DNA of 64,000 nucleotides from Candidatus Kapaibacterium sp. (GCA_046590205.1 JBKJTT010000018.1:1328-65327), one strand, 5' to 3'. Numbered from the stretch's first letter, positions 3,518 to 36,128 are shown. Made by a program: numbers and translations. Notes: generated from the letters alone by a model not told the origin.

Positions 3518-5674
3518 ATGAAAATGAACCTCGTTGCGAAAGCAACACTTATCATGCTCGCCCTTCTCTTTACGGGGATGGACGCTCGAGCACAACTAAC
3601 CGATGTTCCACGCATTATTTCCTATCAGGGTAAGATTGACAATGCTTCAGGGCAGCCAATAGCTGACGGCAAGCACACCGTAACCGTCTCACTCTACCGA
3701 GATGAAGACGGCAAACATAAGGTTTGGACTTCAACCGAACAAGTTGATGTGAAAGGAGGTATAATGAATCTCCAACTCGGTAAAACAAAAGCATTACCGA
3801 ATAGTAATGCAATGTCTGGTCCGCTATATGTCGGCGTATCGCTCAACGGTACAGTAGAAATGCGGCCTCTTACGATGCTCACTGCTGCTCCGTATGCTAT
3901 TAACATACCCGATAAATCGGTAACAATGGAGAAACTCTCTGATGAGGTTACTTCAAAGATTACTGGGTTTAAATCAAATCAGGACCAGCAATCTTGGACT
4001 CTTTTGGGTACAGGAAATATATCAGGTGGTACGTCTGATTTTCTCGGGGGTGGTACAAACAATTCTATTACACCATTCAATGCTGGGGCGGGAAACAAGA
4101 ACACATTAACAGGAGGCGAAACTAATCTCATTGACTCAACTACAAACCATAATTTTATTGGTGGCGGTCGAACAAACGTTATTATAGCTTCAAGTGCCAG
4201 TTCTGCAATAGGAGGTGGTGATTCCAACACAATCCAGGGTGCTCAAGGTGCTTTTATTGGAGGTGGTGATAGCAACAGAATCACTGGAAGAACTGCAACG
4301 ATCGGGGGTGGAGCATTTAACTTAGCAACTGGCAAAGGAGCATTCATTGGAGGCGGCCAAGCTGAATCAGCGGCAATACTTGTGTCTAACAACAGAGCAA
4401 ATGGTCAAAACACTGTGGTTGGAGGTGGTAGTTTGAACGAAGCGAACGCGGACTACTCGACAATTACAGGTGGAGAGCTTAATATTACAACCGGAACCCA
4501 TTCTTTTATCGGTGGTGGTGGTAATACGGTCGGTGGGGTAGGTAATAGCACAACAAAGCAATACTCTTCAATAGTTGGTGGAAAGTCCAATTCTGTTGAG
4601 ACAGAATTCTCTTCAATAGGAGGAGGAGAAGATAATAGTATTTCTACCAACGGCACATACTCCGCTGGACTACACCATAACACTATAGGTGGTGGGCAAC
4701 TCAACGCAATTGTTAATGACAATGGCTCGCGTAGTGCTCATCACTCAACTATCGCAGGTGGTGATTCAAATAGTATTTCTGGCCTCTCAGAACATGCAAC
4801 AATCGGCGGTGGTGGTTGGAATCAAATCAACTTTCGTCTTGGTGGAACCACCAAAAATGATTATGGTACAATCGCAGGAGGCAGTTATAACTTTGTTGAA
4901 AATTCTTGGGGAGTAATAAGCGGTGGGTTTCAAAACCATACGAAAGGAGACTATAGCAAACGCCTAAGTACAATTGCAGGTGGTAGCGGAAATACCACAG
5001 ATGGTCTGGTATCTACTATCGTTGGTGGAGAAAAGAACATTACAAACCAATATGGACAGCTTGTTGGTTGCTTCTTTAATGAGGCAAGAGTTTTAACTGT
5101 TCCTATCACCGGAAACCCGAATGTAACCCAGACAAACACATATAATGAGCCACTTTTCATTCTCGGAAATGGAAAATTAACTCTAAAAAGAAACGCTTTT
5201 GAGGTTTCATTTAATGGCCATTCAATTGTACATGACAGAAATGGAACAGGTAGTAGCGTTGTTGGTGGACGTGCTTCAATAATAGGCGCTACCTACCGAG
5301 ATAATGTTATCTACGCATGGGGTGATGTTCAAGCTATGCATATTGAGTATTCTGGACCATTCCCGGTAAAACTAATAGTAAATTGTGATTTTGGTGTTGA
5401 TTCAGTTATGCAAACAGCTGTCGGAACTTACACAGTTTATTTAAATGTAGACGATGCTTGGGGTGCGAATGCAAGTTTAAGTTGTGGAGCTATTACAACT
5501 TCACCTGTAGGCCCAGTATGTGGGTTAACCTCATCTCCAGGACGCCTCTATGGAACAAACAATCAGCAGTTTGACGTGAAAACATGTTACGCACCAAATA
5601 GTACAGTGCAAAACAATGATTTCATGTTCCATGTAACTGCACGTCCAAACAACCCAAACGCACCAAAGTACTAA
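3518..5674 (+). CDS. Secreted Gly-rich repeat protein (YadA-head / tail-fibre-like ~14-aa repeats)
   Basis: 718-aa ORF with a signal peptide (LALLFTGMDARAQ). The N-terminal region reads IISYQGKIDNASGQPIADGKHTVTVSLY. About 22 repeats follow with the core [IV](G/A)GG..N.I.G (IGGGDSNTIQG, IGGGDSNRITG, IGGGAFNLATG...). Confidence 0.55.
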   Translation: MKMNLVAKATLIMLALLFTGMDARAQLTDVPRIISYQGKIDNASGQPIADGKHTVTVSLYRDEDGKHKVWTSTEQVDVKGGIMNLQLGKTKALPNSNAMSGPLYVGVSLNGTVEMRPLTMLTAAPYAINIPDKSVTMEKLSDEVTSKITGFKSNQDQQSWTLLGTGNISGGTSDFLGGGTNNSITPFNAGAGNKNTLTGGETNLIDSTTNHNFIGGGRTNVIIASSASSAIGGGDSNTIQGAQGAFIGGGDSNRITGRTATIGGGAFNLATGKGAFIGGGQAESAAILVSNNRANGQNTVVGGGSLNEANADYSTITGGELNITTGTHSFIGGGGNTVGGVGNSTTKQYSSIVGGKSNSVETEFSSIGGGEDNSISTNGTYSAGLHHNTIGGGQLNAIVNDNGSRSAHHSTIAGGDSNSISGLSEHATIGGGGWNQINFRLGGTTKNDYGTIAGGSYNFVENSWGVISGGFQNHTKGDYSKRLSTIAGGSGNTTDGLVSTIVGGEKNITNQYGQLVGCFFNEARVLTVPITGNPNVTQTNTYNEPLFILGNGKLTLKRNAFEVSFNGHSIVHDRNGTGSSVVGGRASIIGATYRDNVIYAWGDVQAMHIEYSGPFPVKLIVNCDFGVDSVMQTAVGTYTVYLNVDDAWGANASLSCGAITTSPVGPVCGLTSSPGRLYGTNNQQFDVKTCYAPNSTVQNNDFMFHVTARPNNPNAPKY

Positions 5675-21812: not shown

Positions 21813-21889
21813 TGGTGGGCAATACGGGATTCGAACCTGTGACCTTTTCCATGTCAAGGAAACGCGCTAACCAACTGCGCCAATTGCCC
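21813..21889 (-). tRNA. tRNA-Val (anticodon GAC), CCA encoded
   Basis: The reverse strand folds as a cloverleaf: GGGCAAU-UG-GCGC-AGUUGGUUA-GCGC-G-UUUCC-UUGACAU-GGAAA-AGGUC-ACAGG-UUCGAAU-CCCGU-AUUGCCC-ACCA. There is one A.C mismatch in the T stem. Confidence 0.85.
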
Positions 21890-22264: not shown

Positions 22265-22324
22265 TCTTTCTTGTGCAAAGTTACGGATTTTTGGACGCTT
22301 AGTAACGAATACAACAGCTTTTTT

Positions 22325-24532
22325 ATGCTCGGTCAGCGGTCGTTCATATTTGGGGTTCTCTATTATACGGCAGTCTCACTTGCTGTCTTCATCTTCGCAA
22401 GCCCACTTTTTGCTGTCATTGGGTTTGAGTTTGCAACCATTATTTCACTTGCAGTAAGCATCCATCTCCTATTCTATACTGTAGAAAAGGCATCTACCTC
22501 CCCAAAGGGAAAACTCTTAGAAACACTACGAGGTATCTATCTACCCATCTCCCTCTTTATCCTCATTCCATTTTGCATTGGCATCATTAACGGATTTAAC
22601 ACAAATCAATGTGATCTGCCGCTCGGTATATTGATGTATATTCAGGTTGTATTCCCGACAGCGATCATCGCAGTCCTATTTGGAATTCACTTTGGTTGGA
22701 TGAATGGACATCCACTTCATAGACGGCTTTGGGTCTCTGCATTTTGGATAGTGACATTCATCATTAGTCTATTGCCCGGATATTTCAACCCCCAGATATT
22801 TACCTATGGTTGGCAGTACGGATTTTTCCCTGGGATTATTTGGGATGCAGCGATGGAGTTACAGCCGGCATATTGGTGGTCACGCATAGTGGCTTTGCTA
22901 TTTGTTGTAGGATTCTTAGTAGATGATTATCAACTCATTAAAGCCGGTGCTAAGACTTGGAAAGAAAAAGTAAAAGTAAGACAGGCAAATTATTGGAACA
23001 TTGGTATGATTATCACTAATTTCCAAATTTTTATATGCTTACTACTTCTATCCACCTTGGGGATAACACGATCACACGACTATATCACACAAGAGCTTAG
23101 TAAGAAGGTAGATGTAAAAAGCGCAGTTATTATTCATTGTACCGATAGCACATTCACAAAAGAGGAGCTAACATTGCTTAGATATAACTGCACGCTCTAT
23201 TGTGATTCTATTCGTTCGTTCTTCAATATCAATGATAAACGCTTGACACATCTATATATCTACCCATCCAATGAACAGATGAAGAAGTTCGTCGGCACTG
23301 CAAGCGCAAGCATTGCAAAGCCATGGATGAACGAATTACATATTGCGAAAGAAAATCTCGGCTCACTTAAACATGAGCTTGTCCATACTCTCCTCGCCCC
23401 ATATGGCAACTTCCCTTTTGATGTTAGTTGGAGCACGGGGCTTACCGAAGGTGCGGCAGTTGCCGTTGAAGAGAACTATGACGGTATTCGTGATTGTGAT
23501 GAATACTCCGCTCGTATCTTGCAGTTTGGGCTGACAAAAGGTGTGAAGGACATCATGTCATTCACAGGTTTTGCGGCGCAGGCATCGAGCAAGAGCTATA
23601 CACTTGCAGGGTCATTCAGTAAATATCTGATAAAACAATACGGAAGTGAGAAATTTCTTTCGCTCTACACTACGAGAAATTATGATGGCATCTATGGTAA
23701 ACCGGTTGAAGCTTTAGAGCGCGAATGGGTTGCGTCGCTTCAACCTCTTCAAGTGCCAATGAATAAATACGACTCACTGCGAGTGCTGTTCTACTTCGAT
23801 CGTACATCTATCATCAACGAACCCTGCTTACGCAAGATAGGACGAAAGATGAAAGAAGCCGGCGAACTCTTCGAACAGAAAAGATATTCTGAAGCGGATG
23901 CAATATATGACGAAGTAGCGCATGAGACCGATCGTCTTGATGCTATTCGCGGAAGGGTATTTTGTCAACTACGAATGAACGATCCGAAAGCGGCATTAAC
24001 AATCCTCGATACTCTCACAGCGGCAAAGACAGAACGTAACCTTGCGGCATTACATAACCTTCGAGGTGATTGTATCTTCCTTGCAACAGGCGATACTTCT
24101 AAAGCAAAAGCAGAATGGATGGAAGCGATGAATCTTGAATTAAGTGAGCGTTCAATTACAAACGGCTATATTCGGTATTACTTTCTTGCAAATATTCCTT
24201 CAGAGCAAGCCAAGAGCTATCTCTTGAAACTCTATTCACAAAAAAACTACAATGAACAAGATCTAAAATGGATAGAAAACAGTACAAGTCTTACTGCAGG
24301 ATATGAATTTTTACTGGCAAGACAAGTAGTGTTGTTTACTGCCTATGAAGATATAGGTCATCTGAACAAAGCACTCATAACTGCAAAGATAGTGAGTCAG
24401 GCGAGCAGAATAAATTTCGATCCAAACCGAACTTCAATGATAGTCGCAAACAAACTACAGAAATTTATAGATATTGCTGAACCCGCCTTAGCACCTACAC
24501 AGCAGTCACTCTCCCCTGAAAAGAGTCAATGA
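22325..24532 (+). CDS. Polytopic membrane protein with HExxH metallopeptidase-like domain and C-terminal TPR-like repeats
   Basis: The first ~270 aa contain multiple hydrophobic helices. An HELVH motif is followed 21 aa later by TEGAAV (gluzincin-like spacing), and the C-terminus is helical-repeat. ATG 22325 is preferred over the track's TTG 22271. Confidence 0.5.
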   Translation: MLGQRSFIFGVLYYTAVSLAVFIFASPLFAVIGFEFATIISLAVSIHLLFYTVEKASTSPKGKLLETLRGIYLPISLFILIPFCIGIINGFNTNQCDLPLGILMYIQVVFPTAIIAVLFGIHFGWMNGHPLHRRLWVSAFWIVTFIISLLPGYFNPQIFTYGWQYGFFPGIIWDAAMELQPAYWWSRIVALLFVVGFLVDDYQLIKAGAKTWKEKVKVRQANYWNIGMIITNFQIFICLLLLSTLGITRSHDYITQELSKKVDVKSAVIIHCTDSTFTKEELTLLRYNCTLYCDSIRSFFNINDKRLTHLYIYPSNEQMKKFVGTASASIAKPWMNELHIAKENLGSLKHELVHTLLAPYGNFPFDVSWSTGLTEGAAVAVEENYDGIRDCDEYSARILQFGLTKGVKDIMSFTGFAAQASSKSYTLAGSFSKYLIKQYGSEKFLSLYTTRNYDGIYGKPVEALEREWVASLQPLQVPMNKYDSLRVLFYFDRTSIINEPCLRKIGRKMKEAGELFEQKRYSEADAIYDEVAHETDRLDAIRGRVFCQLRMNDPKAALTILDTLTAAKTERNLAALHNLRGDCIFLATGDTSKAKAEWMEAMNLELSERSITNGYIRYYFLANIPSEQAKSYLLKLYSQKNYNEQDLKWIENSTSLTAGYEFLLARQVVLFTAYEDIGHLNKALITAKIVSQASRINFDPNRTSMIVANKLQKFIDIAEPALAPTQQSLSPEKSQ

Positions 24533-26307: not shown

Positions 26308-28038
26308 TTAAGATGTCTTCGCTATTTTTTCTTCGAGTTCTTTCATCAATGCCTCAAACTCCGGCATCCCCCGCAGCGGATCGAGGTCGGGGTCCGTGCG
26401 GAAAGCTTCGACCATCGAGAGCCCAGCGCTCACAGAACGGCGGAGCATCGTAAGCGCATTCGCAGTATCGCTAAGTCGCGCGTAGAGGCAGGCAATATTG
26501 TAGCAGGACATTCCATCCAAATCCTGTTTCTTTAGCAGCGGCTCAAGGGCAAGCAGCGCACGCTCCGGCTGGTTCGCATAGCGGAGCAGATTCGCGTACC
26601 AAACTCTTGCATTCTCATCATCCGGAACAAGGCTCAGTCTGCGTTCATAGAGTGGAAGTGCTGCCAAACTCCATTTTGTGACGCGCTCCTCGTCGTGAGA
26701 CTGGTCCGAAACAATTACGAGATTCAAGTATAATACCAGATCGCCCGGCTTCAGTTCAATGGATTTCTCATAGTGAGGAATCGCCTCCAGAGGCTGATTC
26801 GTCTCGGTGTAGAAGACTCCAAGAGCGAAATGACTTTCGGAATTCTCCGGCGCCCTGCGAATGAATTCCTTTGCCGCTTCTTCTGCCGCGGCGAGTTTGC
26901 CCTGAAGACGGTAAGAGTTGGGGAGCGCACTATAAGAGCTCCAAAGATCGGGCTTCAACTCAAGTGCTCGTTTTGCAAGCGATTCCGATTCTTCGAGGTG
27001 TTTCGGATTGCGGTCATAGGAGCGGTATAAATCCGTGAGCGCGAATGCCTTGTATTGTAGCGCATTGGCAAAATTTGGGTCGAGCGTTAGCGCATGGGTC
27101 AAGAGTTCAATGGCGATCCCGAAGCCATCACGGGTCAGTCGATAAAAATACTCCTTCGCCTTAAGAAATAGTTCGTACGCTTCGGTATTCTCCGTACCGC
27201 GCTCGGCAAGTTTTTTCTTCTCATCGGCGCTGAGATGAAGCTCCAGACCTTTCAGCACTTCATTCGCAATCACTTCCTGAATATCAAAGATGTTATCCAT
27301 CACACCTTTAAGCGAATGCTGCCAAAGATAATCGCCGGTATCAATATCGAGCAATTGCGCCGTAATCTTGATCTGATCACCGAACTTCCGCACCGAGCCT
27401 TGCACGAAGTAACGTATCTGCATCGTCGAAGCATACGTCGTTAGTTGTCCTTGGTATTTCTTAAACTCCTTCGTCGCCTGCGCGTCCATCAAATGCAGCG
27501 CTTTCACATTCGAAAGCGCACTGATCATTTCGCTCACGATACCATCAGCGAACCATCCGTTATCTGCTGTTGGTGATAAGTCTTCGAACGGAAGTATCAT
27601 CAAACTCTTCTTCCCCGGCGTTTCTTTGATAAGCTTTAGCGTAGGAGCCTTGGTCGCTTCCAAGCCGAGTTTTCCGAGTGCACGGATGATGGAGTCGATG
27701 TTCGTCATCGAAGTCCTATGAATGCCTGCTAACTGATATTCAAGCTCTCGCGGCAACATAATTGGCTCAAGATCAAGAGGGAGTATCTTCTTGCGCTTCT
27801 CTGATGCAAGTGATACTTCTTTAATTACGTTATGTGATTCGATGGAGTTCGGCGAAAGCAATACAATAAATGCTGAACAAGAAGTAATCGCATCAACGAT
27901 CTCTGCTGACCAACTCGTCGAAACCTCAAGAGCAGACTTATCTATCCATACAGATAACCCCGCAGAGCCGAGCAGTTCGGTAAGCTGCTCCGCCTTCTCG
28001 CGGTCTTTGGAGCTATATGAAATGAAGATATCTGCCAA
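26308..28038 (-). CDS. TIR / TolB-N-like / TPR protein, paralogue 4 (soluble)
   Basis: 576-aa ORF with a TTG start. It has a TIR_2-type N-terminus (ADIFISYSSKDREKAEQLTELLGSAGLSVWIDK...NVIKEVSLASEK), the LMILPFEDLSPTADNGWFADG module, and a TPR-like C-terminal half. Confidence 0.8.
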   Translation of the reverse strand: MADIFISYSSKDREKAEQLTELLGSAGLSVWIDKSALEVSTSWSAEIVDAITSCSAFIVLLSPNSIESHNVIKEVSLASEKRKKILPLDLEPIMLPRELEYQLAGIHRTSMTNIDSIIRALGKLGLEATKAPTLKLIKETPGKKSLMILPFEDLSPTADNGWFADGIVSEMISALSNVKALHLMDAQATKEFKKYQGQLTTYASTMQIRYFVQGSVRKFGDQIKITAQLLDIDTGDYLWQHSLKGVMDNIFDIQEVIANEVLKGLELHLSADEKKKLAERGTENTEAYELFLKAKEYFYRLTRDGFGIAIELLTHALTLDPNFANALQYKAFALTDLYRSYDRNPKHLEESESLAKRALELKPDLWSSYSALPNSYRLQGKLAAAEEAAKEFIRRAPENSESHFALGVFYTETNQPLEAIPHYEKSIELKPGDLVLYLNLVIVSDQSHDEERVTKWSLAALPLYERRLSLVPDDENARVWYANLLRYANQPERALLALEPLLKKQDLDGMSCYNIACLYARLSDTANALTMLRRSVSAGLSMVEAFRTDPDLDPLRGMPEFEALMKELEEKIAKTS

Positions 28039-28044
28039 AGTAGT

Positions 28045-28071
28045 TCGTAGTCGTTAGTCGTTAGTCGTTAG
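28045..28071. repeat. Heptanucleotide tandem repeat (TCGTTAG x3 plus a degenerate copy)
   Basis: TCGTAG-TCGTTAG-TCGTTAG-TCGTTAG. On the minus strand this is (CTAACGA)3, which encodes the last codons and stop of paralogue 3 (LTTND*) and part of the 15-nt spacer before paralogue 4. Confidence 0.9.
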
Positions 28072-29802
28072 TGTTTGTTCACTCGTGATTTTTTCTTTGA
28101 GTTCTTTTATAAGCTCCTCGAACTCTGCCGTGTTACGAATTAGATCAAGGTCGGGGTCGTGGTTGATATGTTCTATATCGCGCAAGCCCTTTCCGATTGA
28201 AGCGCGAAGAGCGTTGATAGTACGTTCAGGATCGTTGCAGACTGCGAATAAACATGCAAGGTTATAGAGCGCACCTGCATCAACTCCATCATCACTAATA
28301 AGTAAACGTGCAAAATCCACTGCTTCCGACACCTTGCCTGCCATCTGGAGTACGAAGGCATACTGTACCTTTGCCGTCGTATCATCCGGGGTCAATCGTA
28401 AGTGTCTTGTAAAGACGGGTAATGCTCGATCTGCCGCCTTTGTTATACGCTCTGCATCGCCGAGTTCACTTAAAACAACCATTAGGTTAAAGTGCGCAGA
28501 GAGATTATTGCTATTGAGTACAACGTTCTGCTCGCGAGCATTGGCTGCTTCAGGCAGCATGCCAAAATGCTGGTAAGCGAAGGCAAGCGCACTATATCCG
28601 ACAGCAAGTTTAGGGTCTGCTGAAACCGCACGTTTAGCGAGTTCAAGCGCTTTATCGAGTGAACCGGTAGAGCGGGCAAGCGAACTCATGATCATAAGAT
28701 ACTCTGCAGTCTCACCTTCGATCTGGTAGATCCTATCAGCTGCGAGTTGAATCCGTTCAATGAACCTTGGCTCCTTCGCGTATGTACGGTATAACTCGAT
28801 ACATGCATGAGCGATCTCCATGTGTGCCGTAATATACAAAGGCTCGATACGGATAGCATCTTCATACAGCGTAATCGCCCGTTCGTAATCGGCTTTTGTG
28901 TGGCGCTGATAGTACTCACGTGCCTTCATATAGAGCTCATACGCTTCTATGTTATGCGTACTGCGTCTGCCGAGCTTTTCCTTTTCCTCGGTTGCAAGAT
29001 GAACCTTCAATCCCTCAGCAACCTTCTCGGCAACCTCATCCTGAATATCAAAAATATCTTTCATCTCACCGCGAAGAGAATCTTGCCAAAGATGATCGCC
29101 TGTTTCTATATCAAGAAGCGTTACTGATATTTTTATCTGGTCGCCAAACTTCCGCACCTGTCCTTCGATAAAATATCTCACTGAAAACTCGCGGGCAACG
29201 TCCGTTGTCTTCGCTCTTCGCTCCTTAAATAACTTCGATGAATTCCAATCAATAAGCCGAAGCGACTTGATGTTGCTAAGCTTACTTATCATCTCGCTTG
29301 CCAAACCATCAGCGAACCAACCGTTATCCGCAGTTGGTGATAGGTCTTCGAATGGCAGTATCATCAAGCTCTTGCGAGAGTCCGTCTCTTTAACGATCTT
29401 GATAGACGGTGCTTGCTTTGCTTCAAAGCCAAGCTTCCCCACTGCTCGGATGATGGCATCAATGTTCGTCATCGGCGTTCGTTGAATACCGGCAAGCGCG
29501 TACTGCATGCTCGGTGGTATCTCGACAGGTTCAAGATCGAGCGGAAGTATCTTCTTGCGTTTCTCGGATGCAAGTGATACTTCTTTGACGACGTTATGGG
29601 ATTGGGTGGAGTTCGGGCTTAATATGATTATGAACACACTGCAACTATCTATCCCATGAACGATCTCCTCCGACCAACTCGAAGCAGCTTGTATCCCCTG
29701 CTTATCTATCCATACAGATAGCCCCGCAGAGATAAGCAGCTCGCTAAGCTGCTCCGCCTGCTCGTGATCTTTGGAGCTATATGAAATGAAGATATCAGCC
29801 AT
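28054..29802 (-). CDS. TIR / TolB-N-like / TPR protein, paralogue 3 (soluble)
   Basis: 582-aa ORF. Its ATG start overlaps the upstream stop (ATGGCTGA). Same three-part architecture as paralogue 4. Confidence 0.8.
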   Translation of the reverse strand: MADIFISYSSKDHEQAEQLSELLISAGLSVWIDKQGIQAASSWSEEIVHGIDSCSVFIIILSPNSTQSHNVVKEVSLASEKRKKILPLDLEPVEIPPSMQYALAGIQRTPMTNIDAIIRAVGKLGFEAKQAPSIKIVKETDSRKSLMILPFEDLSPTADNGWFADGLASEMISKLSNIKSLRLIDWNSSKLFKERRAKTTDVAREFSVRYFIEGQVRKFGDQIKISVTLLDIETGDHLWQDSLRGEMKDIFDIQDEVAEKVAEGLKVHLATEEKEKLGRRSTHNIEAYELYMKAREYYQRHTKADYERAITLYEDAIRIEPLYITAHMEIAHACIELYRTYAKEPRFIERIQLAADRIYQIEGETAEYLMIMSSLARSTGSLDKALELAKRAVSADPKLAVGYSALAFAYQHFGMLPEAANAREQNVVLNSNNLSAHFNLMVVLSELGDAERITKAADRALPVFTRHLRLTPDDTTAKVQYAFVLQMAGKVSEAVDFARLLISDDGVDAGALYNLACLFAVCNDPERTINALRASIGKGLRDIEHINHDPDLDLIRNTAEFEELIKELKEKITSEQTLTTND

Positions 29803-31546
29803 TGGATGAATGTTGTTTCTCCATAACCTCGACCATTCTTTTCATATCCTCGTATTCCGGTGTTCCTGCTAACGAAGCTAGTCCATTAGAGTCTTCATTG
29901 AGAAATTCTTTTAAGAACGGGAGATTTTTATAACCTGCCTCAACAGCCTGGCGTAATATATGGAGAGCTTCTGTATGTTCTCCAAGCTTCACAAAAAGGC
30001 AGGAAGTATTATAGAGTGCTATTGCATCTCGCAAATTTTTAAGCCCTTTCGCGGCTGTTCGCGCTTCATCGCCTCGGCCACTTATTTGCAGAAGCATTGC
30101 TCGCCTTACAGCTTTGTGTTCGTCGTCGGGATGAAGTTTCAGATAGCGTTCATAATAGGTTAATGCAACGGAAGCCCAGTACTTACATTTTTCTATTTCA
30201 CCTGTGATTTCGCAGGCGTAGACAAGGCTCAAGAGACTATTGAGATCCTCGGTGTTCAAACGAACACACTCCTCAAAGGGCTCAACCATTTTAGTGAATT
30301 GGCCTGTTTGAGCATAAAAGTACCCAAGTGAATAATAACTTGCAAAATTTTGTGGCTCCTTGAGAATCCAGTCTTTTCCCATTGCTTCAGATTCTTCAAG
30401 TTTTCCCCGGTGCATCAGGATCTCTGAATGTGCCCTCAAGACACCATTAAAATTCGGATCAATTTTATAAATTTCTGCGCAGAGTAACTCCGCTTCATCC
30501 AACAGTGATTGATCGAGGGAATAACCTCCATAGAGACCAGTAAGTGAAGCAGCCTTTAGGTTAATCGCTTGCAGATATTTAGGATCGAGTGAGATTGCCT
30601 CGCTAGAAAGAACGATACTATGCTCATATCCTTCTTTTGTTTGCCGATTAAAGTATTCACGACCTTTTATAAAAAATTCATACGCCTCAGCATTCTCAGT
30701 GCCACGCTCGGCAAGCTTTATCTTTTCATCTGATGCAAGATGCACTTTCAGTCCTTCAACTACTTTCTCAGCTACCTTCTCCTGTATATCAAAGATATCT
30801 TCCATCGTACCTTTGAGAGAGTCCTGCCAGAGGTGGTCGCCGGTTTCAATGTCTAAGAGTGATGAAGTTATTTTTATCTGGTCACCGAACTTCCTTACTG
30901 AACCTTGAATGAAATATCGTATTGACATCTCCTTTGCATACATTGTGAGATGCCCTTTATAGCTCTTGTATTCTTTCGTTGTTTGCTGGTCAGTTACTTT
31001 TAAGGACTTTACATTCGAAAGTGCTGATATTAGTTCAGTCGCAAGCCCATCAGCAAACCACTGATTATCCGCAGTTGGTGATAGGTCTTCGAATGGCAGT
31101 ATCATCAGAGACTTACGTCCGTCTGTCTCTTTGACAAGCTTCATCGTTGGGGCTTGCGTTGCCTCCAAGCCAAGTTTGCCAAGCGCACGGATGATGGCAT
31201 CAATGTTCGTCATCGGTGTACGCTGAATACCGGCTAACTGATACTCAAGCTCTGGTGGTATTGTCACTGGTTCAAGATCGAGAGGGACTATCTTCTTCTG
31301 CTTTTCTGATGCAAGTGAAACTTCCTTTATAACATTATTTGATGCAACAGATGAAGAAGAGAGAAGAAGCAGGAACGCCTTGCACCCGTTAATACCATCA
31401 ACTATCTCCTTCGACCAACTTGTCGCTACACCGATACCCTGCTTATCTATCCACACAGATAACCCCGCAGAAGAAAGCAGCTCGGTAAGCTGCTCCGCCT
31501 TCTCGCGGTCTATGGATGAGTATGATATAAAAATATCTGCGTTCAC
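29795..31546 (-). CDS. TIR / TolB-N-like / TPR protein, paralogue 2 (soluble)
   Basis: 583-aa ORF. Its GTG start overlaps the upstream TAG by 1 nt (TAGTG). Same architecture. Confidence 0.8.
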   Translation of the reverse strand: MNADIFISYSSIDREKAEQLTELLSSAGLSVWIDKQGIGVATSWSKEIVDGINGCKAFLLLLSSSSVASNNVIKEVSLASEKQKKIVPLDLEPVTIPPELEYQLAGIQRTPMTNIDAIIRALGKLGLEATQAPTMKLVKETDGRKSLMILPFEDLSPTADNQWFADGLATELISALSNVKSLKVTDQQTTKEYKSYKGHLTMYAKEMSIRYFIQGSVRKFGDQIKITSSLLDIETGDHLWQDSLKGTMEDIFDIQEKVAEKVVEGLKVHLASDEKIKLAERGTENAEAYEFFIKGREYFNRQTKEGYEHSIVLSSEAISLDPKYLQAINLKAASLTGLYGGYSLDQSLLDEAELLCAEIYKIDPNFNGVLRAHSEILMHRGKLEESEAMGKDWILKEPQNFASYYSLGYFYAQTGQFTKMVEPFEECVRLNTEDLNSLLSLVYACEITGEIEKCKYWASVALTYYERYLKLHPDDEHKAVRRAMLLQISGRGDEARTAAKGLKNLRDAIALYNTSCLFVKLGEHTEALHILRQAVEAGYKNLPFLKEFLNEDSNGLASLAGTPEYEDMKRMVEVMEKQHSSNG

Positions 31547-33396
31547 TATCGTTTGTTCTTCTTAATCTCTTCGACACGAGCGAGTATCTGCTCCTTTGCA
31601 TTCGGTTGCTTTGCGAGTACTGCAAAATCAGGGTCATCTTTCAAACCACTAATATCGGTAGGAAGGATGATAATAGAGTGTGCTAGTTTATCTATCGCCT
31701 GAGCCCATTCGCCGACAAGAGCATACGCACATGCGCCATTATAGTATTCATCCTCGCCCCACTTCTCTTCATACACTAATGCTTTCTTGAGCTCTGCTAC
31801 TGCTTGATCATGTTTGTTCAATAGCGCATAGTAGTATCCCGATTGCACTCGCTGTTTGGTATCAGACTCATTCTTAGAAAGATACCTGGCAAGTAGTGGA
31901 AGATACTGCCGAATCGTTCGGTTATGGCCGGAAGTGTCCCCTAAATGATTGTACGCAATAATGAGATTACGCCATACGCTAAAATTTGAAATGTCACGCT
32001 TTGTCAAGAGTGTATTAATATCAACGACAGCCTCCCACCTTCTTCTCTCCATATAGTAATTACCGAGAGTACCATAGGAATACGGATCGTTCGGCAGAAG
32101 CCGAATAAGTTCTTTCACTTCAAACTCTGCCCGAACTGTATCTTTTCGTAATCGTGCATTATCATAAAAAGTCCTGTGAATATAATGTGCAGATGTGTCC
32201 TTCTTCTGTGCGAATAGTGCAAGAGAGTCTGCGATGGCGAGATCGCGCGTATCGTATGAGACAAACTCAAATCGTTTTTGATAATACCTTGCTAATGCTG
32301 CCAACCCACCGACATACTCCGGCTCAAGCTCTAATGCTTTATCTAAGAGTTTCTTTGCATCTTCAATGACGGCCGAATCAGTTGTCGGCTCAAGCATGGT
32401 GGCTGACTTGATCCGCAACTCAAGTACTTCCGGGTTTTTAGGAATAGGAAAACGTTGTGCATTCCTTTCCTTTTGGACAAGTGCATATTGCAGTTCAAAT
32501 CCTATCGCCTGCCCCATTCTCTCCTGCAGCGACAACACATCATCTATAGATCCGTCAAATTGTTCTGAAAAGAGAACTTTGCCTGCCTTTATATCCAAGA
32601 GTTCTGCCGTGACACGTATATTCTTTCCGCTTACCTGCACCGTCCCCCCCAAGATATAATCAACGCCAAGCTCTTGTGCAGCAGTCTTGCTATCTACCTT
32701 CTTGCCTTTATACGCCATCACCGTTTTTCTATCGGTAACAGATATACCAAAGAGCTGTGCAAGCGTATGAATGACTTCCGATGTTATACCGTCGGTTACA
32801 TTCTCATCCTGCGGGCTTCCGAGATTTTCAAACGGCAGAACAGCAAGTTTACGAGCTTGAAAACCGTAGGTTTGTTCGTTTGTTGTTTTTTTGATAAAGA
32901 AAAAGTATGAAGCAGTAACCGCACATAGTATCAAAAGCAATGCCGACAAACGAAACACAAGTGACGATCTCTTTTTCTCGGAGCGGCGGCTTATTGTCTG
33001 ACTAAACCCACTGCCTGTTATCCCAAACTTTGCAAACGCACGCTCAAGTGCTTCTTCATCCGTTATCGAGACCTGCTGCAGACCGGCAAGTGCATACTCC
33101 ATCGATTCGTTCAACTTGCACTCGGCAATGACAATAGGCACAATGGTCTTACGCTTTTCGGAGGCAAGCGATAACTCTTTTGTGACGTTATGTGATGCGA
33201 CAGAATCTGGCGAGAGAAGAATAATAAACGTCTTACACGAATTGATAGCATTGACTATCTCCGCACTCCACGTCTCAGCTGCCGTCAGTGCGGCAGTATC
33301 TATCCATACACTCGCACCCGAAGCGCGTAGCCGTTCGGCAAGCGAAAGTGCTTGCTCGGAGTCACGGCGAGAGTATGAGATGAAAATATCAGCCAT
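31546..33396 (-). CDS. TIR / TM helix / TolB-N-like / TPR protein, paralogue 1 (membrane-anchored)
   Basis: 616-aa ORF with an ATG start. It has a TIR N-terminus (ADIFISYSRRDSEQALSLAERLRASGASVWID), a hydrophobic segment (LVFRLSALLLILCAVTASYFFFI), then KLAVLPFENLGSPQDENVTDGITSEVIHTLAQ and helical repeats. Confidence 0.8.
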   Translation of the reverse strand: MADIFISYSRRDSEQALSLAERLRASGASVWIDTAALTAAETWSAEIVNAINSCKTFIILLSPDSVASHNVTKELSLASEKRKTIVPIVIAECKLNESMEYALAGLQQVSITDEEALERAFAKFGITGSGFSQTISRRSEKKRSSLVFRLSALLLILCAVTASYFFFIKKTTNEQTYGFQARKLAVLPFENLGSPQDENVTDGITSEVIHTLAQLFGISVTDRKTVMAYKGKKVDSKTAAQELGVDYILGGTVQVSGKNIRVTAELLDIKAGKVLFSEQFDGSIDDVLSLQERMGQAIGFELQYALVQKERNAQRFPIPKNPEVLELRIKSATMLEPTTDSAVIEDAKKLLDKALELEPEYVGGLAALARYYQKRFEFVSYDTRDLAIADSLALFAQKKDTSAHYIHRTFYDNARLRKDTVRAEFEVKELIRLLPNDPYSYGTLGNYYMERRRWEAVVDINTLLTKRDISNFSVWRNLIIAYNHLGDTSGHNRTIRQYLPLLARYLSKNESDTKQRVQSGYYYALLNKHDQAVAELKKALVYEEKWGEDEYYNGACAYALVGEWAQAIDKLAHSIIILPTDISGLKDDPDFAVLAKQPNAKEQILARVEEIKKNKR

Positions 33397-33421
33397 TGTG
33401 GGTATGCAAAGATACGGACTG

Positions 33422-33455
33422 GGATTAATCGGATTTAAGGATTAATGGGATTTTG
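33422..33455. repeat. Imperfect 17-bp tandem direct repeat just upstream of the TIR operon start
   Basis: GGATTAATCGGATTTAA (33422-38) is followed by GGATTAATGGGATTTTG (33439-55). It lies 26-59 nt from the ATG at 33396. Confidence 0.8.
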
Positions 33456-33722
33456 AAGTTATAGGTGCTCATCCAAATTGACCAAAATAGAGTGGAATTG
33501 AGCAAAAAGCGGGTGTGGGTAAATTGTGGATAGTGTATCGTGTTGCGGTTGAGTAAGTTATAGGAAATTTGAGGTTGTGGCGGCGTAGGCATCTTTTTTT
33601 CAACTTGAAAATTTCGTAAATTTGTACGGGAAAGTTGATACTTTGGGTCTTCTTTTGTGAACCTTGGTGTGTCCCTTGTGCCTTTGTGCTTAATTCTTCC
33701 CAAAATGTGTAAATTTATAGCA

Positions 33723-33764
33723 CCCCACGAAACCCGATACCCGAAGCCCGCAACCCGATTCCCC
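33723..33764 (-). repeat. Phased G-tract array (potential G-quadruplex) in the intergenic region
   Basis: The minus strand reads GGGGAATCGGGTTGCGGGCTTCGGGTATCGGGTTTCGTGGGG, which has six G3-4 tracts. The plus-strand CCC starts at 33733, 40, 47, 54 and 61 are exactly 7 nt apart. Confidence 0.85.
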
Positions 33765-33905
33765 GAGTGGTGCACAATTATAGTGTTGAATTATTATAGA
33801 CTTACAGGTGATAATGACCCAATCCGGTGGGGAGACGTGGCAGAAAAAAGATGATTCTTTGCCCTAAAAAATGTCAATATCATGTTAACAAATCGGCTTT
33901 GAGCC

Positions 33906-35429: not shown

Positions 35430-36128
35430 ATGAATTTTACAATAGAACAAGACGAACGCGGCACGATCTTCCGACCGAAAGAAACCCGGTTGGATTCGAT
35501 TGTTGCATCTGAGCTAAAGGCAGAATTCCTGATTCTTGCCCAACCCGACGTGGAAAAGCTCATTATTGACCTTTCTGATGTCGAGTATATCGATTCGGCA
35601 GGGCTATCAGCATTGCTTTTGGCACGGCGCCAGATGTCGGCTCACGAAAGTGATGTCCGCCTCGTTGGCGTCCGTCCCGAGGTCCGCTCCCTCTTATCGC
35701 TGACCCAGCTTGACCGCGTATTCGGTATTTACGAGACGACCGACGAAGCACTCAATGCGCCGCAGCTCTCTTCAATGTCCGTATCGCCTTATGGGCTGGC
35801 AACAGCCGGAGCGAACGTCCTGGCAGTCGGAACATCTACTCTTGCAGGTATTATGATGGCTGATGGCGAAGAAGACCTCATTGATGATGACGACGATCTC
35901 GAGGATATCGAAGATGATGAGGATTATGAATATGATGAAGATGACGACGAAGATGTAGTAGAAGAAGAGGAAAAGAAAAGCGATGACACCGTCGAGAAAA
36001 AAGAAGATGATGCCGAAGAAGAAGATGATGACCTCGCCTACGAAGAAGACGATGACCTCTTAGAGGAGCCCTTCGATGATGATTATGACGAAGATGAAGA
36101 CGACGAGGACGAAGCGCTCGTGGTCTAA
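35430..36128 (+). CDS. STAS-domain anti-sigma-factor antagonist with long poly-acidic C-terminal tail
   Basis: 232-aa ORF. The STAS domain carries the phosphorylatable-Ser motif (EYIDSAGLSALLL). Residues ~144-232 are mostly D/E (DDDDDLEDIEDDEDYEYDEDDDEDVVEEEE...). Confidence 0.75.
   Translation: MNFTIEQDERGTIFRPKETRLDSIVASELKAEFLILAQPDVEKLIIDLSDVEYIDSAGLSALLLARRQMSAHESDVRLVGVRPEVRSLLSLTQLDRVFGIYETTDEALNAPQLSSMSVSPYGLATAGANVLAVGTSTLAGIMMADGEEDLIDDDDDLEDIEDDEDYEYDEDDDEDVVEEEEKKSDDTVEKKEDDAEEEDDDLAYEEDDDLLEEPFDDDYDEDEDDEDEALVV

What the first reader, a model, noticed from the sequence alone, without database searches (positions are those of the whole stretch)
26308..33396. Operon of four tandem TIR / TolB-N-like / TPR paralogues: candidate undescribed TIR-based conflict (immune-like) module
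Four consecutive minus-strand genes (616, 583, 582 and 576 aa) share one architecture. The first part is a TIR_2-type N-terminus: all begin M(N)ADIFISYS..D..A..L...L...G.SVWID. All four keep an invariant ...S.NV.KE.SLASEK... segment whose Glu sits where I expect the NAD-cleaving Glu of enzymatic TIR domains. The second part is a ~120-aa alpha/beta module (LMILPFEDLSPTADNGWFADG..E.IS.LSN) of the kind that links effector domains to TPRs in bacterial cyclase, BTAD and CadC-like TPR proteins. The third part is ~300 aa of TPR-like repeats. The gene junctions are a 1-nt overlap (TAGTG), an 8-nt overlap (ATGGCTGA) and a 15-nt spacer. The start codons are ATG, GTG, ATG and TTG, consistent with a translationally coupled unit containing nothing else. 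Between the convergent housekeeping bshA and the divergent ECF sigma gene there is no SIR2/SLOG/Macro (ThsA-like), STING, SAVED, pAgo, CD-NTase or STAND-NTPase partner. The locus therefore does not match the Thoeris, CBASS, Pycsar, SPARTA or Avs layouts known to me. A TIR effector fused to a repeat sensor without an NTPase, amplified four-fold, is the pattern expected of a diversifying sensor-effector array.
Basis: partly seen in the sequence, partly recalled or inferred. Interest (0 to 1): 0.85.

Follow-up and report, generated by a model that had tools for sequence, protein, structure and literature searches.

The report
Tandem array of TIR sensor proteins
Four back-to-back genes in a Kapaibacterium-like bacterium each fuse a probable NAD-cleaving TIR domain to a fast-diverging CadC-like/TPR sensor, and the array is absent or different in related genomes, so it looks like a small family of immune-type receptors, though its function is untested.

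Summary
There are four co-directional minus-strand genes of 616, 583, 582 and 576 aa, with the stated junctions and start codons. Each encodes a TIR_2 domain, an alpha/beta module and TPRs.

- **TIR domain:** Its invariant Glu aligns with the catalytic Glu of AbTir, PdTIR, BtTir and Cat1. The TIR-only model matches SARM1, SPARTA and AbTir at TM 0.64-0.80.
- **Sensor:** The alpha/beta plus TPR part matches the CadC periplasmic sensor fold. It is also homologous (E 1e-37) to the C-terminal part of rhizobial adenylate cyclases.
- **Membrane form:** Only the first gene has a transmembrane helix, which gives it a Toll-like-receptor-type topology.
- **Partners:** No partner effector or PADLOC system is present.
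- **Family:** It is a large expansion in Kapaibacteriaceae. I saw arrays of 2 to at least 8 genes and at least 13 copies on one contig. The 8-nt junction ATGNCTGA recurs in 20 of 27 junctions.
- **Variability:** At the same bshA/ECF-sigma site, one congener has no array and another has different members.
- **Divergence:** TIR and middle domains are conserved (61-78% identity). The TPRs have diverged (31-36%) but remain under purifying selection.

Best reading: these are self-contained, ligand-gated TIR NADase sensors, probably acting in conflict or immunity. This is a new variant of the known single-protein TIR sensor-effectors such as E. coli TIR-II and SpbK. A non-immune signalling role is not excluded.

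The parts
31546..33396 (-). P1: membrane-anchored TIR / CadC-like sensor protein (616 aa). TIR aa 1-125 (nt 33022-33396), alpha/beta module aa ~181-305 (nt 32482-32856), TPR aa ~310-616 (nt 31549-32469).
   Evidence: ORF. TIR_2 E 4e-23, weak FlgO and TolB_N, CadC PRK10153 1.3e-9, TPR_END_plus 7e-15. Orthologues at 77-88% identity.
32893..32961 (-). Transmembrane helix of P1 (aa ~146-168, LVFRLSALLLILCAVTASYFFFI). More basic residues lie on the TIR side, so the TIR is predicted to be cytoplasmic and the sensor periplasmic.
   Evidence: Hydropathy 2.36 against 1.2-1.5 or less in P2-P4. This stretch is a 31-residue insertion relative to P2-P4. Of 237 full-length homologues, 37 share it, all 607-635 aa long.
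29795..31546 (-). P2: soluble TIR / alpha-beta / TPR paralogue (583 aa, GTG start). TIR nt 31169-31546, middle module nt 30749-31114, TPR nt 29798-30736.
28054..29802 (-). P3: soluble paralogue (582 aa, ATG start). TIR nt 29428-29802, middle module nt 29008-29373, TPR nt 28057-28995.
   Evidence: (mod_pep_cyc 1.5e-13 over the middle region).
26308..28038 (-). P4: soluble paralogue (576 aa, TTG start). TIR nt 27664-28038, middle module nt 27244-27609, TPR nt 26311-27231. Its stop codon lies 3 nt from the bshA stop (convergent genes).
   Evidence: AF2 model pLDDT 92.3, pTM 0.77. CadC periplasmic domain match at TM 0.58-0.66. 79% orthologue in L001.
27817..27819 (-). Codon of the putative catalytic Glu (E74 of P4). 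The equivalent codons are 29581-29583 (P3), 31322-31324 (P2, E75) and 33175-33177 (P1).
   Evidence: Coordinates. Invariant in 99 homologues. Aligns with the Glu of the W...E motif in AbTir, BtTir, PdTIR and Cat1.
29795..29802 (-). 8-nt start/stop overlap ATGGCTGA between P2 and P3. This is the unit boundary of the tandem array.
   Evidence: The same ATG[G/C/T]CTGA overlap occurs at 20 of 27 junctions in six other loci.
33397..33774 (-). Array-specific upstream region, the probable promoter/leader. It contains TATCTTTG 13-20 nt before the P1 ATG, which resembles the Bacteroidota -7 box TAnnTTTG (recalled from memory).
   Evidence: Homology to the empty-site relative L004 breaks at window 26310 and resumes at 33775. 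Sequence read. No similarity to family genes. Promoter function is inferred.

Best explanation
The locus is a four-gene, probably translationally coupled operon of self-contained sensor-effector proteins. Each has an N-terminal TIR domain predicted to hydrolyse or cyclise NAD+. The TIR is joined by a short linker to a CadC-like sensor made of a TolB_N/FlgO-like alpha/beta subdomain and a TPR solenoid.

Proposed mechanism (inferred):
- At rest, the sensor keeps the TIR domains apart.
- Ligand binding to the variable TPR part drives self-association. The TIR domains then assemble through their flexible BB-loops into the composite active site around E74.
- NAD+ is consumed, causing growth arrest or abortive infection. 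A nucleotide signal is also possible, but no receptor gene is nearby.

P1 is membrane-anchored, with its sensor in the periplasm and its TIR in the cytoplasm. P2-P4 are cytoplasmic. The paralogues keep the TIR and alpha/beta parts but differ in their TPRs, so each would recognise a different cue.

Arrays expand, shrink and are reshuffled by unequal recombination in the conserved 5' TIR sequence. This gives a variable receptor repertoire in Kapaibacteriaceae, most likely used in conflict with phages, other mobile elements or competitors.

Shown here: the architecture, the conserved Glu, the folds, the array structure, the copy-number and presence/absence variation, and the lack of partner genes. 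Inferred: NADase activity, ligand gating and the immune role.
For: - **TIR domain:** TIR_2 at E about 1e-21 to 1e-23 in all four proteins. A family profile hits NADase TIRs best: BtTir 7uxr, Cat1, AbTir, PdTIR, SARM1 and SPARTA, at E 5e-9 to 5e-7. E74 sits on their catalytic Glu. The TIR-only model matches these structures at TM 0.64-0.80. E74, S68, N70 and V71 are invariant in 99 homologues.
- **Sensor:** The full model has pLDDT 92. The CadC periplasmic domain matches at TM 0.58-0.66 over 317-389 columns. Residues 129-570 are homologous to rhizobial cyclase C-termini at E 1e-37.
- **Self-contained:** Neighbours have no PADLOC hits and no effector domains. Arrays elsewhere sit in unrelated neighbourhoods with no shared partner gene.
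- **Variable accessory locus:** L004 has an empty site (bshA 96%, ECF sigma 95% identical). L003 has different members and a 57-bp relic of a TIR gene 5' end.
- **Expansion:** At least 987 hits were found. One 1.79-Mb contig carries at least 13 copies, in arrays of at least 8 and of 5.
- **Conserved effector, fast sensor:** Identities are TIR 73-78%, middle 61-71% and TPR 31-36%. In orthologue pairs, dN in the TPR is 2-9 times that in the middle domain. Column entropy is 1.2 bits in the TIR against 2.2 bits in the TPR.
- **Precedent:** The single-protein TIR+TPR system TIR-II defends E. coli and needs its TIR active site (PMC11350192). SpbK is a comparable single-protein TIR sensor (PMC12847820).
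Against: - No activity or phenotype data exist.
- The Trp of the WxxxE motif is an invariant Asn here, so the chemistry may differ.
- dN/dS is 0.06-0.31 with no window above 1. There is therefore no direct signal of positive selection, although synonymous sites are saturated between paralogues.
- The neighbours are housekeeping genes, not a defence island.
- No homologues were found in phage genomes or IMG/VR contigs.
- The same sensor cassette is attached to cyclases and transcription regulators that act in ordinary signalling and are also multi-copy in rhizobia.
- About one in six homologues has a periplasmic sensor, which is unusual for phage sensing.
- The relatives compared are congeners with 82-87% flank DNA identity, not strains, so turnover need not be very fast.
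Confidence: 0.5

Rival explanations
1. The proteins are ordinary (non-immune) signal transducers. The CadC-like/TPR cassette senses environmental or metabolic ligands. The TIR domain is simply an alternative output domain, like the cyclase or winged-helix/BTAD domains fused to the same cassette elsewhere. It would adjust NAD+ levels or make an NAD-derived second messenger for physiology.
For: Residues 129-570 are homologous to the C-terminal part of adenylate/guanylate cyclases in 569 plasmid records, with up to 12 places per replicon. There are CadC, HilA and mod_pep_cyc profile hits and a CadC fold match. TM forms have a periplasmic sensor, as in one-component receptors. Selection is purifying. 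The neighbours are housekeeping genes, including an ECF sigma / anti-sigma / STAS module next door that is nevertheless conserved in L004, where the array is absent.
Against: The array is dispensable and variable between congeners. The extreme tandem amplification with fully diverged TPRs is more typical of recognition repertoires. The closest solved TIR relatives are NAD-depleting or immune enzymes. To my knowledge, no bacterial housekeeping pathway using TIR-made messengers is known.
Confidence: 0.3
2. The TIR domains are not enzymes. They act as homotypic or heterotypic assembly (scaffold) domains that bring the four TPR proteins, including the membrane-anchored P1, into one complex. This would resemble TLR/MyD88-type adaptor signalling, or an envelope-associated TPR machine.
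For: The Trp of the catalytic WxxxE motif is replaced by Asn. The best single fold hit is a non-enzymatic Hydra Toll-related receptor TIR, and MyD88 filaments are also matched. The TIR and middle parts are 61-78% identical among P2-P4, which could permit mixed assemblies. Co-translation from overlapping genes fits the picture.
Against: The Glu is invariant in 99 homologues together with neighbouring S, N and V. That conservation is hard to explain for a pure scaffold. Profile hits rank NADase TIRs first.
Confidence: 0.1
3. The array is one component of a larger, dispersed Thoeris-like system. The TIR proteins make a signalling nucleotide on sensing an invader, and an effector encoded elsewhere in the genome executes the response.
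For: There are weak ThsB_TIR and Thoeris type III ThcB4 domain-level hits. New Thoeris types with TPR-containing components keep being found (bioRxiv 10.64898/2025.12.03.692087).
Against: No ThsA-like or other effector lies within 10 kb in the window or in seven other array loci. All the hits cover only the TIR domain and fall far below the family cut-offs (for example ThcB4 at 25-40 bits against 220).
Confidence: 0.1

Closest known systems
E. coli TIR-II single-protein TIR+TPR antiphage system (Nat Commun 2024, PMC11350192)
   Same: It has an N-terminal TIR and TPR repeats in one polypeptide, often without an NTPase and with no obligatory partner. Defence requires the TIR active-site residues.
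   Different: Relatedness was not demonstrated beyond the domain level. The present family has an extra TolB_N/FlgO-like alpha/beta subdomain that forms a CadC-like sensor, includes membrane-anchored members, and occurs in tandem arrays of 2 to at least 8 genes with 8-nt overlaps. It is restricted, as far as seen, to Kapaibacteriaceae-type Bacteroidota. Its function is untested.
SpbK (Bacillus subtilis) and other single-protein TIR NADase sensors (PMC12847820)
   Same: It is a self-contained sensor plus TIR NADase. Direct recognition of a trigger leads to TIR assembly and NAD+ loss.
   Different: SpbK has a different, non-TPR sensor part, is a single-copy gene, and is prophage-associated. Only a marginal TIR-level hit was seen here (PADLOC spbK E 0.025).
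CadC periplasmic sensor domain (PDB 3LY7) and the cyclase/BTAD-linked TolB_N-like + TPR cassette of Rhizobiales
   Same: It shares the two-part fold of an alpha/beta subdomain followed by a helical/TPR bundle (TM 0.58-0.66). It shows sequence homology over ~440 residues to the cyclase-linked versions (28% identity, E 1e-37). P1 has the CadC topology: a cytoplasmic output domain, one TM helix and a periplasmic sensor.
   Different: The output domain is a TIR rather than a winged-helix DNA-binding or nucleotide-cyclase domain. P2-P4 lack the TM helix.
Thoeris (ThsB TIR + ThsA-type effector)
   Same: It has a TIR domain of the bacterial TIR_2/ThsB-like kind with the catalytic Glu.
   Different: No effector gene is adjacent. 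The TIR here is fused to its own large sensor. Hits are domain-level only and sub-threshold.
Toll-like receptors and plant TIR-NLR gene clusters (functional analogy only)
   Same: P1 has an extracytoplasmic repeat sensor, one TM helix and a cytoplasmic TIR, as TLRs do. The tandem arrays of paralogues with a conserved TIR and diverged repeat sensors, and the presence/absence variation between relatives, resemble R-gene clusters.
   Different: The repeats are TPR rather than LRR, there is no NB-ARC domain, and the TIR is N-terminal. These are independent domain assemblies, with no evidence of shared descent beyond the TIR fold.

Membership tests
TIR domain superfamily (Pfam TIR_2, PF13676) | Profile match above the curated cut-off, and a flavodoxin-like TIR fold | tested here: met
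   76-83 bits against a cut-off of 28 in all four proteins. The TIR-only AF2 model matches SARM1, SPARTA, AbTir and Hydra TRR-2 TIRs at TM 0.64-0.80.
Enzymatic (NADase) TIR domains | Catalytic Glu in the alphaC helix at the position of AbTir, SARM1, PdTIR and Cat1 | tested here: met
   Profile and pairwise alignments place E74 on the Glu of kkdWtnyEld (AbTir), kkeWpqkEld (PdTIR), kknWteyEln (BtTir) and sdWcwdEle (Cat1). It is invariant in 99 homologues.
Enzymatic (NADase) TIR domains | Conserved aromatic Trp four residues before the Glu (WxxxE) | tested here: not met
   This position is an invariant Asn (N70) in the family. The consequence for catalysis is unknown.
Enzymatic (NADase) TIR domains | Measured NAD+ hydrolysis or cyclisation | not testable with these tools
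   This needs biochemistry.
Thoeris | A ThsA-type effector (SIR2/SLOG, Macro, TM or other) encoded next to the TIR gene | tested here: not met
   Pfam and PADLOC scans of ten neighbours within about 6 kb on each side find none. None is present in seven other array loci. ThcB4 scores 25-40 bits against a cut-off of 220.
CBASS / Pycsar | A CD-NTase or pyrimidine cyclase gene plus a signal-binding effector (SAVED, STING and others) | tested here: not met
   The only hits are TIR-domain-level matches to SAVED_TIR and CAP12-PCTIR models, covering residues 2-90. There is no cyclase or SAVED domain in the proteins or their neighbours.
SPARTA (short pAgo + TIR-APAZ) | An APAZ domain fused to the TIR, and an adjacent short Argonaute | tested here: not met
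   PADLOC Aga_TIR hits cover only profile positions ~5-114. Residues beyond 125 fold as an alpha/beta module plus TPR. No pAgo is nearby.
Avs / STAND NLR-like TIR proteins | A central P-loop STAND NTPase between effector and repeats | tested here: not met
   There are no NTPase Pfam or NCBIfam hits. The 120-aa middle module folds as a strand-helix sandwich matching the N-terminal subdomain of CadC.
E. coli TIR-II (TIR+TPR single-protein defence) | TIR and TPR in one protein, acting alone | tested here: met
   The architecture is shown, and the absence of a partner. This is a match of architecture only.
E. coli TIR-II (TIR+TPR single-protein defence) | Sequence relatedness to the validated E. 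coli protein, and antiphage activity | not tested
The solved 824-aa TIR-TPR protein 9m0n matches only over the TIR (E 3.5e-4). Activity needs experiments.
CadC-like / cyclase-linked TolB_N-like + TPR sensor cassette | An alpha/beta subdomain followed by a helical repeat bundle, homologous to the cassette of CadC-type regulators and class III cyclases | tested here: met
   Foldseek matches 3LY7, 3LY8, 3LY9 and 3LYA at TM 0.58-0.66. tblastn gives E 1e-37 over aa 129-570 to rhizobial cyclases. PRK10153 CadC scores 1e-9 to 1e-6 and mod_pep_cyc 1.5e-13, both partial and below the full-length cut-offs.
Pfam TolB_N (PF04052) / FlgO (PF17680) | Profile match above the gathering score | tested here: inconclusive
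   Only P1 hits, and below the cut-off: FlgO 19.4 bits against 22.6, TolB_N 14.5 against 22.4. Some homologues carry precomputed FlgO or TolB_N hits, and NCBI names some 'FlgO family outer membrane protein'.

The most novel reading that the evidence does not exclude
Kapaibacteriaceae carry a germline-encoded, rapidly reshuffled repertoire of TIR receptors: dozens of paralogues per genome in translationally coupled tandem arrays. Some members are membrane-spanning, with an extracytoplasmic TPR sensor and a cytoplasmic TIR (a bacterial counterpart of Toll-like-receptor topology). Others are cytoplasmic. Their near-identical TIR and alpha/beta parts would let differently tuned sensors co-assemble into one NAD-consuming signalling platform. 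That would be a bacterial analogue of plant R-gene clusters and animal TLR expansions, built without an NTPase.
Probability: 0.3. Interest if true: 0.8.

Novelty: new variant of a known kind. Interest (0 to 1): 0.6.

Why it matters
If the proteins are ligand-gated NADases, the family gives three things.
- It offers a natural library of one conserved effector joined to many sensors, for working out how TPR/CadC-like sensors switch TIR domains on without an NTPase.
- It provides membrane-spanning bacterial TIR receptors with a sensor outside the cytoplasm. I know of no characterised bacterial TIR defence protein with this topology.
- It is a bacterial case of receptor-repertoire evolution by tandem duplication and unequal crossing-over.

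It also bears on a wider question. The TolB_N-like + TPR cassette is attached to many cyclases and regulators in soil bacteria, and its ligands are unknown outside CadC. If instead the family is ordinary signalling, it would be the first case of a TIR domain used as a routine output domain in bacterial one-component sensing.

Tried and rejected
- **Named defence systems:** PADLOC, NCBIfam and Pfam gave only TIR-domain-level, sub-threshold matches (ThsB, SAVED_TIR, Aga_TIR, PDC-S66, retron-TIR, ThcB4). None was full length.
- **Defence-island context:** Ten neighbours gave zero PADLOC hits.
- **Mobile-element carriage:** There is no homologue in 50,697 phage genomes apart from one 31% TIR fragment. 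One TIR-only hit was found in IMG/VR. Plasmid hits are cyclase or BTAD proteins sharing only the sensor cassette. The tRNA at 21816-21889 is not at the array border.
- **Positive selection:** Nei-Gojobori dN/dS per domain gave 0.03-0.31. Synonymous sites are saturated between paralogues, so no claim can be made.
- **Promoter and terminator scans:** Sigma-70 and terminator matches were at chance level. This consensus is not expected to apply in Bacteroidota.
- **Upstream region 33397-33774:** It has no similarity to family genes and no Rfam match.
- **Literature:** Searches on TIR+TolB+TPR, COG5616, Kapabacteria+TIR, and lineage-specific expansion found no description of this family. The paper behind PDB 9m0n was not identified.
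- **Taxonomic range:** Looking for names on the deep homologues failed, because most are unnamed metagenome proteins.

Full report
**1. The observation**

| Gene | Coordinates | Length | Start |
|---|---|---|---|
| P1 | 31546-33396 | 616 aa | ATG |
| P2 | 29795-31546 | 583 aa | GTG |
| P3 | 28054-29802 | 582 aa | ATG |
| P4 | 26308-28038 | 576 aa | TTG |

Reading the junctions confirms a 1-nt overlap (TAGTG), an 8-nt overlap (ATGGCTGA) and a 15-nt spacer. The unusual start codons are credible because each is followed by the conserved (N)ADIFISYS N-terminus. The quoted motifs are invariant among the four proteins.

The flanking genes are BshA (TIGR03999, 511 bits against a cut-off of 274) and an ECF sigma factor. 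The sigma gene is followed by an RseA-like anti-sigma factor and a STAS antagonist. No other copy of the family lies in the window.

**2. Domain anatomy**

*TIR domain.* Pfam TIR_2 matches residues ~4-115 of all four proteins at E 4e-23 to 6e-21. TPR families and the NCBIfam 'TPR end-of-group' domain cover residues ~300-570.

*Full-length model.* An AlphaFold2 model of P4, built on 99 homologues, is confident (pLDDT 92.3, pTM 0.77). It shows:
- a TIR domain (aa 1-125) with a low-confidence BB-loop (aa 37-41);
- an 18-residue linker;
- an alpha/beta module (aa 144-265);
- a TPR solenoid (aa 270-576).

*TIR-only model and profile search.* A TIR-only model matches SPARTA TIR-APAZ, SARM1, AbTir, BtTir and a Hydra Toll-related receptor at TM 0.64-0.80. 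A profile of the family's TIR region finds NAD-cleaving TIRs first in the PDB: BtTir 7uxr, Cat1, AbTir, PdTIR, SARM1/TIR-1 and SPARTA, at E 5e-9 to 5e-7.

*Catalytic position.* The conserved shNVvkEvs stretch aligns with kkdWtnyEld of AbTir, kkeWpqkEld of PdTIR and sdWcwdEle of Cat1. E74 is invariant in 99 homologues, together with S68, N70 and V71. One departure is that the Trp of the usual WxxxE motif is an invariant Asn.

*Middle module.* It reaches only sub-threshold FlgO and TolB_N scores, and only in P1. Structure and sequence still place it:
- The middle + TPR part matches the periplasmic sensor domain of CadC (3LY7, 3LY8, 3LY9, 3LYA) at TM 0.58-0.66 over 317-389 columns.
- Residues 129-570 of P4 align at 28% identity (E 1e-37) with the C-terminal part of adenylate/guanylate cyclases on 569 plasmid records, mostly rhizobial. 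BTAD regulators are also hit.
- CadC, HilA and 'peptide-modification cyclase' models give partial hits.

It is an exchangeable sensor cassette, and here a TIR takes the place of the cyclase or DNA-binding output domain.

**3.

P1 is a distinct subtype. It is only ~30% identical to P2-P4, which are ~50% identical to each other. It also carries a 31-residue insertion with a strong transmembrane helix between the TIR and the sensor. The basic residues lie on the TIR side. That predicts a cytoplasmic TIR and a periplasmic sensor, which is the CadC topology and, by analogy, that of Toll-like receptors.

Among 237 full-length homologues, 37 have this helix, all 607-635 aa long. The other 200 do not.

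**4. The family and its arrays**

*Size and taxonomy.* A search with P4 returned at least 987 hits at E <= 1e-10. The top 120 are all full-length and 56-79% identical. Sources name them 'TIR domain-containing protein' from Candidatus Kapabacteria, Ignavibacteriota or Bacteroidota MAGs, or, from COG rules, 'adenylate cyclase' or 'TolB-like protein'. Against representatives clustered at 50% identity, the TIR + middle region finds 382 clusters at E <= 1e-30. The window's own flanks match Candidatus Kapaibacterium MAGs (taxonomy).

*Array sizes.* Homologues sit in head-to-tail arrays of very different size and in unrelated neighbourhoods:
- 2 genes next to a response regulator and histidine kinase (L001);
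- at least 8 genes next to groES/groEL, plus a separate array of 5 on the same 1.79-Mb contig, so at least 13 copies in one genome;
- at least 8 genes filling a 13-kb contig that includes the P1 orthologue (L024);
- 2 + 7 genes with TM and soluble forms interleaved (L025);
- 3 genes (L026).

No non-TIR gene recurs next to these arrays.

*Junctions.* 20 of 27 junctions in those loci are the same 8-nt overlap ATG[G/C/T]CTGA. The duplication unit is therefore exactly one gene, and stop/start coupling is a conserved feature.

**5. Is the array fixed or variable?**

I anchored on bshA and retrieved 18 Kapaibacteriaceae loci from GTDB species representatives. The upstream gene order (753-aa protein, YigZ, bshA) is conserved wherever that flank was captured.

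- **L004** (bshA 96%, ECF sigma 95% identical): bshA is followed directly by the ECF sigma / anti-sigma / STAS / T9SS genes. Homology to the window breaks at 26310 and resumes at 33775. The 7.46 kb is replaced by 732 bp holding a small lipoprotein-like ORF.
- **L003** (bshA 98%): TIR/TPR genes are present at the site, but they are only 61% and 42% identical to the window's. A 57-bp relic of a TIR gene 5' end lies between bshA and the last intact gene.
- **The fifteen more distant loci** (bshA 68-82%): none has a family member within the up-to-10-kb bshA flanks recovered (less on short contigs).

Flank DNA identity is 82-87%, so these relatives are congeners, not strains. The array is accessory and variable.

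**6. Pattern of divergence**

| Comparison | TIR | Middle | TPR | Source |
|---|---|---|---|---|
| Identity among P2-P4 | 73-78% | 61-71% | 31-36% | |
| Mean column entropy, 99 homologues (bits) | 1.2 | 1.4 | 2.2 | |
| dN/dS, P4 vs its L001 orthologue | 0.15 | 0.13 | 0.31 | |
| dN/dS, P1 vs its L024 orthologue | 0.06 | 0.08 | 0.11 | |

DNA identity falls from 79-87% in the first 90 nt to background level in the 3' half. No value of dN/dS exceeds 1.

In the P4 / L001 pair, synonymous divergence of the TIR part is three times that of the rest (1.30 against 0.45). Within other arrays, neighbouring genes share identical TIR N-termini. Both observations point to exchange of the 5' part among paralogues.

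Overall, the effector is conserved and the sensor evolves faster. Positive selection is not demonstrated.

**7. Most likely mechanism**

*Shown.* Each protein is a self-contained fusion of a TIR with an intact catalytic Glu and a CadC-like sensor. The proteins are encoded in a coupled operon with no partner gene.

*Inferred.* The inference rests on established knowledge of SARM1, AbTir, SPARTA, SpbK and plant TIRs, where activity requires TIR self-association. On that basis, ligand binding to the variable TPR/alpha-beta sensor would promote oligomerisation. The TIR domains would then assemble and NAD+ would be hydrolysed or cyclised. Because no receptor for a nucleotide signal is nearby, direct NAD+ depletion is the simplest output. 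P1 would report extracytoplasmic cues and P2-P4 cytoplasmic ones.

*Function.* The variable, amplified, single-gene-unit arrays suggest a recognition repertoire used in conflict with phages, other mobile elements or competitors.

*Precedent.* E. coli TIR-II is a single TIR+TPR protein that defends against phages and depends on its TIR active site (PMC11350192). SpbK is a single-protein TIR sensor of a phage portal protein (PMC12847820). I put about 0.5 on this explanation.

**8. Rivals**

- **Ordinary signalling, ~0.3.** The same cassette drives cyclases and regulators, also in many paralogues. Selection is purifying. The neighbours are housekeeping genes with no PADLOC hits. No phage-borne homologues exist. 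One in six members senses the periplasm.
- **A non-enzymatic scaffold TIR, ~0.1.** This is suggested by the Trp-to-Asn change and by fold hits to receptor and adaptor TIRs. The invariant Glu argues against it.
- **A dispersed Thoeris-like system with a remote effector, ~0.1.** This cannot be excluded without complete genomes, but nothing in eight loci supports it.

**9. Comparison with what is known, and novelty**

The locus is not Thoeris, CBASS, Pycsar, SPARTA or Avs. In each case the defining partner or domain was looked for and is absent.

It works like the known single-protein TIR sensor-effectors, but differs from them in four ways:
- the CadC-like sensor with its TolB_N-like subdomain;
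- the presence of membrane-spanning members;
- the organisation in long, translationally coupled tandem arrays;
- the very high copy number in one lineage.

I found no paper describing this family. I therefore rate it a new variant of a known kind. It is of moderate to good interest (0.6), with a more novel 'bacterial TIR receptor repertoire' reading at about 0.3 probability.

Noticed in passing
window 28048-28072: A perfect 7-bp tandem repeat (TAGTCGT x3.6 on the + strand, ACGACTA on the gene strand) spans the last codons and stop of P3 and the 15-nt P3/P4 spacer. In most arrays elsewhere this junction is the 8-nt overlap, so the repeat may mark a slipped or remodelled junction.
   Followed up: partly
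L004 4045-4776 (ORF 4131-4736, minus strand): In the relative that lacks the array, the same bshA/ECF-sigma slot holds a small lipoprotein-like ORF (signal peptide ending in ...FIMSCNSDD). The slot therefore carries alternative cargo in different congeners.
   Followed up: partly
L003 3330-3386: A 57-bp relic, 82-84% identical to the 5' ends of the window's TIR genes, lies between bshA and the last intact TIR gene. It looks like a scar of deletion or unequal crossing-over inside the array.
   Followed up: partly
L002, L024, L025, L026, L028, L001 (array junctions): 20 of 27 junctions between consecutive family genes are the same 8-nt overlap ATG[G/C/T]CTGA. This forces the upstream protein to end in ...(N)G and the downstream one to begin M-(A/P/S)-D.
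   Followed up: yes
window 35430-36128 (+): The STAS anti-sigma-factor antagonist has a C-terminal tail of about 95 residues made almost entirely of Asp and Glu (GAT/GAA repeats). It sits in a conserved ECF sigma / anti-sigma / STAS cluster next to the array.
   Followed up: no
L024 1952-3544: One array member lacks the first 47 residues of the TIR domain (51% identical to P4 from residue 48 onward). It follows a 133-bp gap instead of the usual overlap. It is either a decaying copy or a MAG frameshift.
   Followed up: partly
window 22271-24532 (+): A 753-aa multi-pass membrane protein with a weak peptidase-MA match and a TPR has no NCBIfam match. It is conserved next to YigZ and bshA in nearly all of the Kapaibacteriaceae loci examined.
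   Followed up: no
PDB 9m0n / 9umd (not in the window): A solved 824-aa 'Tetratricopeptide repeat protein' has an N-terminal TIR that matches the family profile (E 3.5e-4). It may be a characterised TIR-TPR defence protein, but I could not identify the paper behind it.
   Followed up: partly
L028 18162-18864 and 21188-21553: A nucleotidyltransferase/HEPN pair and a PemK toxin lie 6-10 kb from one five-gene array. This is the only defence-like neighbourhood seen among eight array loci.
   Followed up: no
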